Assembly: GCF_003018255.1 (NCBI RefSeq)
Contig: NZ_CP027440.1
Source of the DNA: Escherichia coli
Lineage (GTDB): Bacteria; Pseudomonadota; Gammaproteobacteria; Enterobacterales; Enterobacteriaceae
Reading direction: 5' to 3' (one strand)
Length of the DNA stretch: 64,000 nucleotides
In this document: piece by piece, positions 55,801 to 58,800 of the stretch
Position numbering within the stretch: the first letter of the stretch is position 1
Layout: every line of letters starts with the position of its first letter
Program-made: the position numbers

Positions 55801-58800
55801 GTTGAACTGAATAAAAAACTGTCGGTGCAGATCCCTTCCGAAGGTGAAAAAAAACGCCGTGATGAGCAGTTCGCGGCGTTTTACGATTATTGCCGGAAAG
55901 TGATGAGCAGAAATCTCGCAGAGTGTTTCCGTATTCAAAAAAACAGAGAGCGCTCTGCAAATAGTGAGATTCTGGATAATTTTTTAAAGGGGACGCATCT
56001 CGCCAGTGATTGTTTCATTGCTCATTCTTTTGGTGGCTTTCATGAGGCCATCAAACATGATGTTGAGAGAAGTCCAGGTATCCTCTGTTCCATTCCCGTA
56101 AGCATCGAAATAGACACAAATACGATAACCGGTGAACTCGTTACCGCCGGAGTCGGTATATTCCGTCATGAGGGGAACGATGCCAAAGGTTCCTTTACAA
56201 AAATCGGGCCGTTCTTTCTGAAGGTAGAGCGATAGTTTGTTAAGTACCCATCCGACAGCTCGCTCATTTTGGTTTATTTTCGTATCGCGAAACAAAAATT
56301 CGAAGCGGCCAGATGACGCATGGGTGCAACCAAATACCGGGGCGTATTCATCAACCTTTGGCGTTCCTGAAAACATGCAGTCCGTGCTCTCGAATGCAGA
56401 TGAATTGCTGTTGATCCACTTAACAAAAGAAAAAAAGGTCTGAATCGCTTGTCTGTCTGAATATTCAACAAAATCCTCAAGGTGTGTCTCGATCAGTTCC
56501 GGGTGTTTACGAAAGTCATAATATTGACCGGGACGATATTTATGAGTGGTTGTTTTATCCCATGGTTGTGCTCTGCGTCCCTGTAAACGGAGGTCTGCCG
56601 CTGGATAGATAAGCATAAGTAATCTCCTGGTGGAATGTAATCCACGATCATCCGGGGAAATTAAGAACCCGCCAGAGCCCACCACTGGTGGGGTGAAGGC
56701 TTAACATATCCAGGGATTCGGAACCGATAAATCCTGATAAATATCCATGAACACAAAAATCAAATACGGCCTGTCGGCTGCCGTTCTGGCGCTGATTGCC
56801 GCAGGGGCGCCTGCGCCTGATATTCTCGACCAGTTTCTGGATGAAAAAGAAGGTAACCACACCACGGCATACCGTGATGGTGCGGGTATCTGGACCATTT
56901 GTCGTGGTGCCACCAGGGTGGATGGCAAACCTGTCGTCCCGGGCATGAAGTTGTCGAAGAAAAAATGCGACCAGGTTAACGCCATTGAGCGTGATAAGGC
57001 GCTGGCATGGGTGGAGAAAAACATCCGGGTGCCACTGACTGAACCCCAGAAAGCGGGGATCGCGTCATTCTGCCCGTATAACATTGGCCCCGGTAAGTGT
57101 TTCCCGTCGACGTTTTATAAACGAATTAATGCAGGCGATCGCAGGGGAGCGTGTGAAGCGATTCGCTGGTGGATTAAGGACGGTGGCAGAGACTGCCGTA
57201 TCCGCTCAAACAACTGTTACGGCCAGATATCCCGTCGTGACCAGGAGAGCGCGCTGGCGTGCTGGGGAATCGACAGATAAGCAGAATATTTTGCTGAAAA
57301 ATGACGTTGGCCAACGCGGACGGATAACACGAAATCCTGCGAACTGGCAAAACCTAAGTGAATAAAAGTAAAAACCCCGTTTGTTGGCAGCAAGCGGGGT
57401 TTTGTGTTTCTGACCTTGGATAAGGCAAGGGAGAACATGGAAAAGTATAAACGAATTCTGTTGAGGTTGACTATGAAAAACGGCCCTGAACTGAAAGCGC
57501 CAGTAAGTGATGACATCAGCAGAGCGCTGGCTTTTGCTATTAAGTGGGTGGCGGTTGGTATCGCTGTGTCTCCGATACTGTATGGGCTGGCAAAACTGGT
57601 CATTGCGTTGAAATCGTGAAGGGAGGATTAAACATGTCAGACAAACTCATAATGCTGGCGAAGATCCTCTGTGTAATCGTCGGCATTTCATTTTCACTAA
57701 TGCTGGTTGCTCTTTTTCTTTCCATGGGCTGGATGATGTTGTCTTCGTCGGGGCTGCTGGAGTGAGCATAAACCGAATGCTTTCCGCGTTTACCGTTATT
57801 CTGCTGGTGGTCTGTGGTGCGCTTAGTCTGGGGCTGAATCATTACCGCGATAACGCCATCACCTACAAAGCGCAGCGCGATAAAAAAGCCAGAGAGCTGG
57901 AGCAGGCAAACGCAACCATTACTGATATGCAGGTGCGCCAGCGCGATGTTGCTGCGCTCGATGCAAAATACTCGAGGGAATTAGCCGATGCGAGAGCTGA
58001 AAATGAAACTCTGCGTGCTGATGTTGCCGCTGGTCGTAAGCGCCTGCGGATCAACGCCACCTGCTCCGGTACCGTGCGTGAAGCCACCGGCACCTCCGGC
58101 GTGGGCAATGATGCCGCCGTCGAACTCTCTCCGGTTGCTGGACGAAACGTTCTCGGTATCAGAGACGGAATCATCAGCGACCAGGCTGCATTGAGAATGC
58201 TTCAGGAATATATCCGCACTCAGTGTATTAACTAGTATTTTTGTTATCCGGAGAATGCATGAAGAAATTACTGGTAACCGTAAAGCCTTTTCAGGGAACA
58301 ATTCCGTTCCGTATTTTGCAGCGTGGTCGTGTTCTTGTTGAAGGTTCGTTCAGTGGTAAATGTACGCAATTACACTCCCGGACCTTTCAGGTGAATGCCA
58401 CGAATGAAGAGCTAACCGTTGAGTGTACGATGAATGCCGCTAAATGCCGTATGGTATCGGCTGCATTACAGCCAGTGTGTTGAGCGACCTTATTATCCAT
58501 GCGCGGTATTGTCGCCGTATTCCCGTATTAACAGAGACCGCAGCCCGACAGGGAGACTCCTCTGCGCGAGTGTGCGGGGATAATCAAAAACGATACACAC
58601 CGGGGTTTACCGCGTTAACGGAGCGCGGCGTTGTCCCCTCATAGTCGCCTGTCCGGTGCGATGGCGGAAGAAACTGGATTTGTTGCAACTGATAACCATT
58701 ATCATTTTCTCGGGTCCTTTCCGGCATATGGACCCGTTACGGGGCGGCGACCTCGCGCGTTTTCACTATTTATGAGATTTTTTGAGGGGGGTGGTTGTTG

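What the first reader, a model, noticed from the sequence alone, without database searches (positions are those of the whole stretch)
57374..57765. Two small single-TM ORFs between endolysin R and spanin Rz
Where some lambdoid phages have nothing or an antirepressor gene, this prophage has a terminator-like hairpin followed by two short ORFs (60 and 43 aa), each with a strong Shine-Dalgarno and one predicted TM helix. They might be lysis accessory proteins (antiholin or spanin-related), membrane morons, or non-functional.
Basis: inference. Interest (0 to 1): 0.4.

Follow-up and report, generated by a model that had tools for sequence, protein, structure and literature searches.

The report
Hairpin-guarded small membrane genes beside spanin
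Between the cell-wall enzyme gene and the outer-membrane-disruption gene of this Shiga-toxin prophage sit two real, conserved genes for tiny membrane proteins of unknown function. The first belongs to a mobile cassette that seems built to stay silent until the phage kills the cell.

Summary
The window is an E. coli Stx2a lambdoid prophage.

After the R lysozyme gene come:
- a strong hairpin with U-runs on both strands (57371-57403)
- ORF1 (57437-57619, 60 aa)
- ORF2 (57634-57765, 43 aa), which abuts Rz

Both ORFs have strong Shine-Dalgarno sequences and one hydrophobic helix.

**Are they genes?** ORF1 clearly is: dN/dS is 0.15. ORF2 is more weakly constrained: dN/dS is 0.56, and 8 of 81 loci carry a frameshifted tail. 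About 989 of 5426 complete E. coli genomes carry the pair. Databases list both only as hypothetical proteins (PHROGs 1115 and 4906).

**New here.** ORF1-family genes always travel with the hairpin. They have no sense promoter. Many sit beside endolysins of at least three enzyme families, though others sit at tail-gene junctions. They have a second, internal start. In 19 of 21 cassettes an antisense promoter-like site points from the start codon into the hairpin, against 0.7% of control genes. Synonymous sites are frozen at both promoter boxes.

**Best reading.** These are late-only small inner-membrane proteins, probably accessory to lysis. A terminator guards them, and possibly a roughly 75-nt antisense RNA as well. 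Function, RNA and translation are all untested.

The parts
56747..57280 (+). R endolysin gene (context). It has a phage lysozyme domain and an N-terminal Ala/Gly-rich hydrophobic segment (a SAR-type signal anchor, inferred).
   Evidence: PF00959, E 1.5e-24. The N-terminal 19-aa window has a KD mean of 1.74. The E-x8-D-x5-T motif was read from the translation.
57281..57370 (+). Conserved non-coding stretch after R. It is shared with Stx phages that carry other cargo at this site.
   Evidence: The first 155 nt of the query are 89-95% identical in H-19B, CP-1639 and many Stx1/Stx2 phages. Part of it is also kept in Salmonella.
57371..57403 (.). GC-rich hairpin with an A-run before it and a U-run after it. 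It is an intrinsic-terminator-like element that could work in both directions.
   Evidence: -21.1 kcal/mol on the + strand (z -4.6) and -14.2 on the - strand. The outer stem is invariant and the inner stem covaries in 16 variants. The + strand fold is the more stable in 14 of 16. The hairpin lies 30-60 nt upstream of every ORF1-family and type C small ORF examined.
57404..57436 (+). 5' leader of ORF1. It holds the Shine-Dalgarno AAGGGAG (57427-57433) and a 5-bp stem, CCUUG/CAAGG, that overlaps it.
   Evidence: The sequence is. The SD is conserved in 85 of 87 loci. The stem is kept in E. coli, Salmonella and Sakai Sp4.
57437..57619 (+). ORF1: a 60-aa protein with a basic N-terminal 29 residues and one C-terminal transmembrane helix. 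Family: PHROG 1115/4493/3246. PGAP accession WP_062896309.1, annotated 'hypothetical protein'.
   Evidence: phrog_1115, E 1.5e-40. dN/dS is 0.15. AF2 gives a helix at residues 25-59. Homologues occur in Escherichia and Salmonella, and a full profile search returned 23 representative clusters.
57473..57475 (+). Internal ATG (Met13) of ORF1, preceded by GAGG 7 nt upstream. It is a possible second start that would give a 48-aa form lacking four basic residues.
   Evidence: Met13, AGG (12/13) and the AAA that follows (13/13) are frozen across 13 lineages. Many database entries start here. Inferred; not shown to be used.
57444..57473 (-). Sigma-70 promoter-like site on the antisense strand: TAGTCA (57473-57468), an 18-nt spacer, then TATACT (57449-57444). 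The predicted start is at about 57437.
   Evidence: and (9.6 bits, the best site on either strand in 57100-57800). An equivalent site is found in 19 of 21 cassettes against 0.7% of 138 control gene starts. Synonymous sites are frozen at both hexamers while the spacer varies.
57362..57437 (-). Predicted cis-antisense RNA of about 75 nt. It would be complementary to the ORF1 start codon, SD and leader, and would end at the hairpin and its U-run. This is a hypothesis.
   Evidence: Inferred from the promoter-like site and the minus-strand hairpin followed by UUUUUACUUUUAUU. No RNA data exist. Rfam gives only sub-threshold matches here. There is no Hfq-CRAC peak at the equivalent Sakai Sp4 site.
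57620..57633 (+). The 14-nt ORF1-ORF2 spacer, which holds the Shine-Dalgarno AGGGAGG.
   Evidence: It is conserved in nearly all of the 81 loci.
57634..57765 (+). ORF2: a 43-aa peptide that is almost entirely one hydrophobic helix. Family: PHROG 4906. PGAP accession WP_001280926.1, annotated 'hypothetical protein'. Found only in E. coli.
   Evidence: phrog_4906, E 5e-21. Homologues are from E. coli only and the length is conserved. dN/dS is 0.36 for codons 1-27 and 0.51 for codons 28-43. A frameshifted tail occurs in 8 of 81 loci. In Sakai Sp6, Sp10 and Sp12 it follows ant and precedes Rz.
57762..58235 (+). Rz i-spanin gene (context). PGAP starts it at ATG 57777. A GTG at 57762 overlaps the ORF2 stop (GTGA). 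The ancestral ATG is ATA here.
   Evidence: PF03245, E 7.6e-40. The sequence is, compared with CP-1639 and H-19B Rz.
58003..58194 (+). Rz1 o-spanin lipoprotein gene, embedded in Rz in the +1 frame (context).
   Evidence: translation: [15 protein letters not shown]... followed by a proline-rich stretch. Sakai homologues are annotated 'lipoprotein precursor'.

Best explanation
The interval holds two genes for small, single-pass inner-membrane proteins that belong to the phage late (lysis) operon.

**When they are made.** They have no promoter of their own on the coding strand. A strong intrinsic terminator sits immediately upstream. So they should be transcribed only when Q-modified, terminator-resistant RNA polymerase runs through from pR'. 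That means late in lytic growth, together with S, R and Rz. This step is inferred from anatomy and from lambda Q biology.

**How they are packed.** ORF1, ORF2 and Rz sit tightly together. The gaps are 14 nt and then a GTGA overlap (or 11 nt to the ATG), and each gene has its own strong SD. They would therefore be translated from one message.

**ORF1.** It is the conserved core of a mobile cassette made of a hairpin, a leader and a small ORF. The cassette recurs next to endolysins of several enzyme families. I therefore think ORF1 acts in the cytoplasmic membrane at the lysis step as a non-essential accessory. It could tune holin triggering, endolysin release or membrane integrity. It is not an essential lysis protein.

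**Signs of a harmful product.** The cassette looks built to keep the product off in the lysogen. The terminator blocks read-through. A conserved antisense promoter-like element would also make a roughly 75-nt RNA covering the ORF1 ribosome-binding site. This design fits a product that is harmful at low dose. An internal second start (Met13) may give two isoforms differing by a basic 12-residue tail, much as holin/antiholin pairs do.

**ORF2.** It is a younger add-on found only in E. coli. It always lies directly before Rz, and its role is less certain.
For: **Real genes**
- ORF1 has dN/dS of 0.15. This is close to R (0.09) and far from the off-frame values of 0.81 and 2.77.
- The ORF2 SD and its 43-aa length are conserved.
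- PGAP and PHROGs both call the two genes.

**Membrane proteins**
- Hydropathy supports one transmembrane segment each.
- AF2 gives ORF1 a single helix at residues 25-59.

**Late-only expression**
- There is no sense promoter in 57100-57800. The best site scores 7.3 bits, below the 90th percentile of background.
- The terminator hairpin is strong and structurally conserved.

**Link to lysis.** ORF1-family genes lie in these positions:
- between SAR-type R and Rz in E. coli (76 of 87 loci)
- between a 161-aa lysozyme and Rz in Salmonella
- after GH108/PG_binding_3 endolysins
- after a GH19-like enzyme with a PG_binding_1 domain (the GH19 match is sub-threshold)
- between a lysozyme and a DUF2514 RzpQ-type protein
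- in L097, overlapping a holin-like gene (phrog_920, E 1e-6) just before a lysozyme

**Non-essential**
- K-12 Qin has nothing at this site.
- Sp6, Sp10 and Sp12 have ant there.
- Plaque-forming phages PhiR12 and PhiR5 carry the pair.

**Antisense element**
- 19 of 21 cassettes have a site of at least 9.5 bits with a predicted start within 3 nt of the start codon. Only 0.7% of 138 control starts do.
- Synonymous sites are frozen at both hexamers: TAT 13/13, AAA 13/13, AGG 12/13, TTG 12/12. The 18-nt spacer and the rest of the ORF vary freely.
Against: **No functional data.** There are no data of any kind on function, and no papers mention these genes.

**No family membership.** Nothing links them to a holin, antiholin, releasin, spanin, defence or toxin family.

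**Context is not always lysis.** About six ORF1-family contexts are unrelated to lysis. They lie after tail fibres, between tail tube and tape measure, between baseplate genes, and at a prophage end. The endolysin association could therefore reflect preferred insertion sites.

**The antisense RNA is only predicted.**
- The hairpin is more stable on the sense strand in 14 of 16 variants.
- No Hfq-bound peak was reported at the equivalent Sakai Sp4 site.
- Part of the frozen sequence can also be explained by the internal SD and start.
- ORF1-family cassettes share ancestry, so the 19 of 21 are perhaps 6-8 independent lineages.

**ORF2 may be decaying.** Its constraint is weak and frameshifted alleles exist.
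Confidence: 0.4

Rival explanations
1. ORF1 is the toxin of a type I toxin-antitoxin-like cassette that has nothing to do with programmed lysis. A small hydrophobic peptide is held in check by a cis-antisense RNA. The cassette persists because it is selfish, by addiction or prophage stabilisation, or because it aborts infection. It hops between permissive junctions of phage late operons.
For: - The product is small (60 aa or less) and has a single transmembrane helix.
- The antisense promoter-like site fires from the start codon toward a terminator, the geometry known for SymE/SymR.
- Cassettes occur in tandem arrays (L095, L097).
- They also occur at non-lysis junctions.
- Distribution is narrow and patchy.
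Against: - The toxin mRNA has no promoter of its own, and a terminator lies immediately upstream.
- It matches no known type I toxin family in Pfam and no antitoxin RNA family in Rfam at threshold.
- More than half of the independent contexts are next to an endolysin, which a purely selfish element would not need.
- The antisense RNA has not been observed.
Confidence: 0.2
2. The ORFs are lysogenic-conversion or exclusion genes, meaning morons in the loose sense. They would be small membrane proteins that benefit the host or block superinfecting phages, and they simply occupy a tolerant gap in the lysis region, as ant, bor or PerC-like genes do nearby.
For: - The R-Rz gap and its neighbourhood are cargo sites. 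Related prophages carry ant, PerC-family, TonB-like, YlcI/YnfO and HNH genes there.
- Family members are also found after tail-fibre genes and at prophage ends, which are classic moron sites.
Against: - The defining moron architecture is absent. There is no sense promoter, and the terminator is upstream rather than downstream.
- An upstream terminator and an antisense element argue for silence in the lysogen, not for expression there.
- There is no match to PADLOC defence models.
Confidence: 0.12
3. The main functional element is an RNA: the hairpin together with an antisense or 3'-UTR-derived small RNA. ORF2, and perhaps the long form of ORF1, would then be incidental or decaying reading frames.
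For: - The hairpin is the most conserved structural feature and travels with every cassette.
- Nucleotide-level freezing is seen inside ORF1.
- ORF2 has weak constraint and frameshift alleles.
- Prophage late regions are rich in small RNAs (PMC4104026; STnc100 at 51816-52031).
Against: - ORF1 shows clear protein-level purifying selection over its whole length, including the transmembrane helix far from the hairpin. Codons 30-60 have dN/dS of 0.16.
- Distant homologues keep the protein pattern while their DNA has diverged.
Confidence: 0.1

Closest known systems
Phage Mu gp25 'releasin' (DUF2730; Chamblee et al. 2022, PMC9239132)
   Same: It is a small membrane-tethered protein encoded in a lysis region beside a SAR endolysin and spanins. 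It is an accessory that acts on endolysin release rather than forming the lethal hole. Its family also occurs in phages with cytoplasmic endolysins, just as ORF1 relatives occur beside non-SAR endolysins.
   Different: gp25 has an N-terminal transmembrane domain and a cytoplasmic domain, and it belongs to DUF2730. ORF1 has a C-terminal transmembrane helix, is 60 aa long, and has no Pfam match. No release activity has been tested.
Dual-start holin/antiholin pairs (lambda S107/S105; phage 21 S21-71/S21-68)
   Same: These are small membrane proteins of the lysis cassette. Two in-frame starts a few codons apart yield isoforms that differ by basic residues at the N-terminus, with an RNA stem near the first SD. 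ORF1 has Met1 and Met13, each with its own SD. Its 12-residue extension carries four basic residues, and a 5-bp stem overlaps SD1.
   Different: ORF1 has one transmembrane helix, no charged C-terminal tail and no holin-family match. The phage already has an S21-like holin at 55225-55440. Use of both starts has not been shown.
Type I toxin-antitoxin loci with a 5'-overlapping antisense RNA (SymE/SymR geometry; Hok/Sok, Ibs/Sib, ShoB/OhsC as the wider class)
   Same: They have a small hydrophobic ORF and tend to occur in tandem copies. The predicted antisense promoter lies inside the first codons, so the RNA would cover the SD and start codon and end at a terminator.
   Different: The ORF has no promoter of its own. 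It is embedded in a phage late operon behind a terminator. It has no sequence or covariance match at threshold; OhsC scores 16.7 bits against a cut-off of 50. Neither toxicity nor the RNA has been demonstrated.
Morons of lambdoid phages (Juhala et al. 2000; e.g. lambda bor and lom, HK97 gene 15)
   Same: It is extra DNA inserted between two conserved late genes. It is mosaic in distribution, is found at several junctions, and encodes small envelope proteins.
   Different: A moron has its own promoter and a downstream terminator, and it is expressed in the lysogen. Here the order is terminator, then gene, with no sense promoter. This is the opposite logic.
Other lysis accessory membrane proteins (P2 LysA, P1 LydB/LydC/LydD; PMC9025707)
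   Same: They are non-essential genes within or next to lysis cassettes that modulate lysis timing.
   Different: There is no sequence relationship. Those proteins are larger or have several transmembrane helices. Function here is unknown.

Membership tests
Holin / antiholin | At least one transmembrane domain, in a small protein encoded next to the endolysin | tested here: met
   Each ORF has one hydrophobic helix. They lie directly downstream of R.
Holin / antiholin | A match to a curated holin family, or a hydrophilic, highly charged C-terminal domain | tested here: not met
   No Pfam, PHROG 'lysis' or NCBIfam hit. ORF1 ends ...ALKS and ORF2 ends ...SSSGLLE.
Holin / antiholin | Changes lysis timing, or is lethal or permeabilising when expressed | not testable with these tools
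   Needs induction and deletion experiments.
Releasin (Mu gp25, DUF2730) | Membership of DUF2730, with an N-terminal transmembrane domain and a cytoplasmic domain | tested here: not met
   No Pfam match at E<=1. The ORF1 transmembrane helix is C-terminal.
Two-component spanin (Rz/Rz1) | i-spanin: an N-terminal transmembrane domain plus a periplasmic coiled-coil domain. o-spanin: a lipobox Cys and a proline-rich mature part. | tested here: not met
   ORF1 and ORF2 are too short and have no lipobox. PF03245 hits only the downstream gene. ORF2 similarity to the Rz transmembrane domain is not significant at the DNA level.
Moron (strict sense) | Own sigma-70 promoter upstream and a terminator downstream of the inserted gene | tested here: not met
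   The best sense-strand site in 57100-57800 scores 7.3 bits, below the background 90th percentile. The scan found none. The only strong terminator is upstream.
Type I toxin-antitoxin | A small (about 60 aa or less) hydrophobic membrane peptide | tested here: met
   The ORFs are 60 aa and 43 aa, each with one transmembrane segment.
Type I toxin-antitoxin | A cis-encoded antisense RNA overlapping the toxin mRNA | tested here: inconclusive
   A promoter-like site and a terminator are present in the right geometry and are conserved. But no RNA evidence exists, there is no Rfam hit at threshold, and there is no Hfq-CRAC peak in Sakai Sp4.
Type I toxin-antitoxin | Toxin gene with its own promoter; toxicity on overexpression | tested here: not met
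   No sense promoter was found. Toxicity cannot be tested here.
PHROG 1115/4493 (ORF1) and PHROG 4906 (ORF2), families of unknown function | A significant profile match over the full length | tested here: met
   phrog_1115 E 1.5e-40, phrog_4493 E 1.9e-27, phrog_4906 E 5.2e-21.

The most novel reading that the evidence does not exclude
The hairpin plus small ORF is one member of an undescribed class of mobile cassettes in temperate enterobacterial phages.

**Structure of each cassette**
- a bidirectional terminator
- a short leader
- a dual-start gene for a single-pass membrane peptide
- an antisense promoter that fires from the start codon back into the terminator

**Predicted behaviour.** The cassette would be doubly silenced in the lysogen, by termination and by an antisense RNA of about 70-100 nt. 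It would be switched on only by Q-type antitermination. Its products would act as separately encoded regulators or effectors of membrane permeabilisation at lysis. This is a type I toxin-antitoxin logic recruited into the phage lysis programme.

**Families.** At least two unrelated peptide families share this design: ORF1/PHROG 1115-4493, and the 'FDFSKLIRE...RWW' PHROG 6632 type seen in H-19B.
Probability: 0.3. Interest if true: 0.7.

Novelty: new variant of a known kind. Interest (0 to 1): 0.5.

Why it matters
**Prevalence.** The pair lies in the lysis cassette of Shiga-toxin and related prophages and is carried by about 18% of complete E. coli genomes. In these phages lysis is what releases toxin and virions, so an unrecognised modulator of lysis timing or efficiency would bear on toxin release.

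**A testable design.** The cassette architecture gives a concrete hypothesis for how phages carry dose-sensitive membrane peptides safely through lysogeny. It consists of an upstream terminator, an antisense promoter at the start codon and dual starts. It recurs across two unrelated peptide families and beside several endolysin types.

**Annotation.** The result marks a set of small ORFs that older records miss entirely. H-19B, for example, has an unannotated one between R and Rz.

**If nothing comes of it.** The genes are then simply conserved hypothetical phage membrane proteins.

Tried and rejected
**1. A known prophage small RNA at the hairpin.** Rfam finds nothing there. AsxR, AgvB and the Pas sRNAs lie upstream of S. 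The Tree 2014 Hfq peaks EcOnc10, 11 and 12 lie after Rz at the 3' end of a ylcI/ynfO-like gene, and EcOnc33 lies at the end of the esterase gene.

**2. ORF2 as a duplicate of the Rz transmembrane domain.** Weak protein-level similarity (p about 0.001-0.02, with many tests and one sequence recalled from memory) disappears at the DNA level. Rejected.

**3. Curated families.** Pfam, NCBIfam, PADLOC and PDB sequence searches gave no hits.

**4. Literature.** Searches by accession, locus tag, phrase and hairpin sequence found nothing.

**5. K-12 as a proxy for transcript data.** Qin has rrrQ overlapping rzpQ, so there is no cassette to examine.

**6. Antisense ORFs.** The minus-strand ORFs at 57217-57603 and 57600-57842 are not coding. 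The third-position variation follows the plus-strand frame.

**7. Sub-threshold Rfam hits.** Minus-strand hits at 57361-57436 (rimP leader 25.6 of 47 bits; OhsC 16.7 of 50 bits) are treated as chance. They are driven by the terminator.

**8. Broad alignment search.** One attempt to fetch distant relatives with a broad alignment failed because no stretch was conserved enough. A narrower alignment worked.

**9. Structure.** The AlphaFold model adds only 'one long helix'. No fold search was run because a single helix would give meaningless matches.
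Full report
**1. What is in the window**

The 64-kb window matches a Stx2a lambdoid prophage of E. coli. The queried interval is 100% identical to strain 00-3076 and several other STEC.

The late region reads in this order:

| Feature | Coordinates |
|---|---|
| tRNAs | 50159-50407 |
| stx2AB | – |
| STnc100-type sRNA | 51816-52031 |
| Esterase gene | – |
| S21-like class II holin | 55225-55440 |
| Interrupted DUF1327 gene | – |
| R lysozyme | 56747-57280 |
| The interval in question | 57281-57776 |
| Rz / Rz1 | 57777-58235 |
| 74-aa ORF | 58259-58483 |
| cos, then terminase | – |

**2.

The hairpin at 57371-57403 has 15 pairs and folds at -21.1 kcal/mol. Its z-score is -4.6, and none of 200 shuffles folds as well.

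ORF1 runs from 57437 to 57619 (60 aa) and ORF2 from 57634 to 57765 (43 aa). Both have strong Shine-Dalgarno sequences, and each has one segment at transmembrane-level hydrophobicity. AlphaFold2 on a 23-sequence alignment gives ORF1 a single helix at residues 25-59 and a low-confidence N-terminus.

**3. Are they genes?**

I compared 87 loci: 80 IMG/VR contigs, several genomes and the window. The order R-ORF1-ORF2-Rz holds in 76 of them.

Nei-Gojobori estimates over distinct alleles:

| Region | dN/dS | Variable sites by codon position |
|---|---|---|
| ORF1 | 0.15 | 10/6/24 |
| ORF1, the two other frames | 0.81 and 2.77 | – |
| R (neighbour) | 0.09 | – |
| ORF2 overall | 0.56 | 18/15/21 |
| ORF2 codons 1-27 | 0.36 | – |
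| ORF2 codons 28-43 | 0.51 | – |

ORF1 is therefore a protein-coding gene under strong constraint.

ORF2 keeps its 43-aa length and its SD. However, 8 of 81 loci have a frameshifted C-terminal half. ORF2 is probably a gene, but its tail is loosely constrained.

RefSeq annotates both as hypothetical proteins. PHROGs places them in families of unknown function: 1115/4493/3246 for ORF1 and 4906 for ORF2. Pfam, NCBIfam, PADLOC and PDB searches give nothing.

**4. Distribution**

- 989 of 5426 complete E. coli genomes hold at least 80% of the interval. They include O157:H7, O104:H4, O145:H28 and ST131.
- Plaque-forming phages PhiR12 and PhiR5 also carry it.
- ORF1 homologues occur in Escherichia and Salmonella. 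ORF2 homologues occur only in E. coli.
- A full HMMER scan of 1.8 billion representatives finds only 23 clusters for the ORF1 family.

The two ORFs are independent modules:

| Host / prophage | Arrangement |
|---|---|
| Salmonella, Sakai Sp4 | R, hairpin, ORF1-family gene, Rz; no ORF2 |
| Sakai Sp6, Sp10, Sp12 | R, ant, ORF2-like (48 aa), Rz |
| EPEC E2348/69 | Permuted set with extra paralogues |
| H-19B, CP-1639 | Same hairpin, then an unrelated 45-aa transmembrane ORF (PHROG 6632, called 'type C' here), abutting Rz |
| K-12 Qin | Nothing between rrrQ and rzpQ |

**5. The hairpin belongs to the cassette**

Every ORF1-family or type C gene examined has a GC-rich hairpin with an A-run before it and a U-run after it, 30-60 nt upstream. 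This holds whatever the upstream gene is.

The outer stem is constant and the inner stem changes in a compensatory way. Examples are UUUG/CAAG, GCUG/CAGU and GAACG/CGAUC. All 16 variants fold at -18 to -26 kcal/mol.

The sense-strand fold is the more stable in 14 of 16. The structure therefore matters at least on the sense RNA, most simply as a terminator in front of the cassette.

No sigma-70-like promoter lies on the sense strand anywhere in 57100-57800. Given how lambda-type Q antitermination works, I infer that the ORFs are transcribed only by Q-modified polymerase, which means late in lytic growth.

**6. Context points to lysis, but not exclusively**

| Type of context | Where ORF1-family genes sit |
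|---|---|
| Lysis | Between SAR-type R and Rz |
| Lysis | Between a 161-aa lysozyme and Rz (Salmonella) |
| Lysis | After GH108/PG_binding_3 enzymes |
| Lysis | After a GH19-like enzyme with PG_binding_1 (the GH19 match is sub-threshold) |
| Lysis | Between a lysozyme and a DUF2514 RzpQ-type protein |
| Lysis | After a lysozyme and before a methylase |
| Lysis | L097, a distant metagenomic phage: array after the capsid gene, one member overlapping a holin-like ORF (phrog_920, E 1e-6), ending at a lysozyme |
| Not lysis | After tail fibres |
| Not lysis | Between tail tube or chaperone and tape measure |
| Not lysis | Between baseplate genes |

Roughly half of the independent contexts are next to an endolysin. 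This exceeds what a random late-operon junction would give. It is still not proof of function.

**7. An unexpected conserved element inside ORF1**

The simple scan found one promoter-like site in the region, and it lies on the minus strand inside ORF1: TAGTCA, 18 nt, TATACT (57473-57444).

I then used my own position-weight scan.
- All 14 cassettes first examined have an antisense site at or above the 96th percentile of random windows.
- In 12 of them the predicted start falls within 3 nt of the ORF start codon.
- Seven further divergent loci behave the same way, five of them with a perfect TATAAT.
- Of 138 ordinary gene starts in the same loci, 0.7% reach this criterion.
- The starts of ORF2, Rz, R and S in the window do not.

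A codon table of 13 lineages shows frozen synonymous positions at exactly the two hexamers: Tyr4 TAT 13/13, Lys5 AAA 13/13, Arg10 AGG 12/13 and Leu11 TTG 12/12. The 18-nt spacer codons and codons 17-34 use synonymous codons freely.

A transcript from this site would run about 75 nt. It would cross the ORF1 start codon, SD and leader, and end at the hairpin and its U-run (57437 to about 57362). This is the geometry of type I toxin-antitoxin pairs such as SymE/SymR.

Caveats:
- No RNA data were available.
- Rfam gives only sub-threshold matches here.
- The published Hfq-CRAC peak list for Sakai has nothing at the Sp4 equivalent.
- ORF1-family cassettes share ancestry, so they are not 19 independent observations.
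- Part of the frozen block (GAGG, 7 nt, then ATG-AAA) also reads as an internal ribosome-binding site for Met13.

That last point matters in its own right. Both ORF1 and type C genes have a second in-frame start with its own SD about 12-13 codons in. In ORF1 the extension carries four basic residues. This is reminiscent of dual-start holin/antiholin genes.

**8. Interpretation**

*Shown:*
- There are two conserved small ORFs with transmembrane helices.
- A conserved terminator-like hairpin is tied to the ORF1 cassette.
- There is no sense promoter.
- The ORFs are tightly packed against Rz.
- Family members are often next to an endolysin.
- An antisense promoter-like motif is conserved, with frozen synonymous sites.

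*Inferred:*
- The ORFs are expressed only late.
- They insert into the inner membrane.
- An antisense RNA and two isoforms exist.
- They play a role in lysis.

My best account has confidence of about 0.4. ORF1, and less certainly ORF2, are late-expressed accessory membrane proteins of the lysis programme. They are kept silent in the lysogen because they are harmful. They are dispensable, because sister phages lack them.

Rival accounts:

| Rival | Confidence |
|---|---|
| A type I TA-like selfish or abortive cassette unrelated to lysis | 0.2 |
| A conversion or exclusion gene | 0.12 |
| An RNA-centred element with incidental ORFs | 0.1 |

**9. Comparison with what is known**

The nearest functional analogues are:
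- Mu gp25 releasin (PMC9239132)
- dual-start antiholins
- P2 and P1 lysis accessory proteins (PMC9025707)
- type I toxins

Membership in each family fails at least one defining feature that I could test (see the membership table). The strict moron architecture is also not met.

The genes themselves are already in databases as hypothetical proteins. What appears new is the cassette design and its association with endolysins.

**10. Verdict**

This is a real feature. It is moderately interesting as found, and more so if the antisense, dual-start, terminator-guarded design is confirmed. Function remains unknown, and only experiments can settle it.

Noticed in passing
window 55690-56745 (ORF 55984-56685, minus strand): An insertion of about 1 kb lies between the DUF1327 (ydfR-like) gene and R. 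The insertion truncates or fuses that gene. It carries a 233-aa minus-strand ORF with no Pfam, PHROG, NCBIfam or PADLOC match, and PGAP leaves it unannotated. The full insertion occurs in 131 of 5426 E. coli genomes.
   Followed up: partly
window 55847-55882: A second hairpin flanked by an A-run and a T-run (AAAAAAAACGCCGTGATGAGCAGTTCGCGGCGTTTT). It lies inside the extended DUF1327 reading frame, near the left edge of that insertion.
   Followed up: no
window 51816-52031 (+): A full-length STnc100 match (158 bits, E 4e-36). It lies downstream of stx2B and upstream of the esterase gene, the position described for PasD/STnc100-type prophage sRNAs.
   Followed up: no
window 54545-54621 (-): A sub-threshold Esr41-like match (28.6 bits against a cut-off of 102) immediately after the esterase gene. 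Hfq-bound sRNAs such as EcOnc33 and the Pas sRNAs sit at this position in other prophages.
   Followed up: no
window 57762-57779: The ancestral ATG start of Rz (MNRVL... in H-19B and CP-1639) is ATA here. Rz must start either at the GTG at 57762, which overlaps the ORF2 stop as GTGA, or at the ATG at 57777 that PGAP chose.
   Followed up: partly
window 55225-55440: The S21-like holin begins MYQMEK. It has two Met codons, as in the dual-start S21, but no lysine between them. That lysine is the residue that makes S21-71 an antiholin.
   Followed up: no
window 58259-58483: A 74-aa ORF (phrog_2571, unknown function) follows the spanin genes. A homologue follows the equivalent position in strain RM13745 (L005), so it travels with this module. 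An antisense promoter-like site of 8.3 bits also sits at its start.
   Followed up: partly
L005 2871-3053: In strain RM13745 the ORF1-ORF2 pair follows two holin-like genes and a GH108 endolysin. The place of Rz/Rz1 is taken by a 60-aa lipoprotein with an LVGC lipobox (phrog_7528, unknown function).
   Followed up: partly
L087 3724-3813: In the Salmonella prophage an unannotated 29-aa hydrophobic ORF (MICFVAAFMLACDGRSGWGWFLLVGLIVM) starts at an ATGA overlap with the lysozyme stop codon.
   Followed up: no
L087 3979-4003 and L100 (Sakai Sp4, minus strand, about 6790-6766): In Salmonella and Sakai Sp4, ORF1 starts at a GTG preceded by an 8-codon upstream ORF. That ORF's stop overlaps the GTG as GTGA. 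The window allele looks like a 25-nt deletion that joins the first SD directly to a new ATG.
   Followed up: partly
L107 1660-1797 (phage H-19B, AF034975): The classical Stx1 phage H-19B has the hairpin and a 45-aa transmembrane ORF (PHROG 6632 type) between R and Rz. The GenBank record does not annotate it.
   Followed up: partly
L104/L105 3001-3601: An ORF1-family gene (49 aa, ...AVRWW) and the adjoining Rz gene survive as a prophage remnant next to sopD in 4.55-4.59 Mb genomes, presumably Salmonella. The protein is listed in 1647 blocks of the collection.
   Followed up: no
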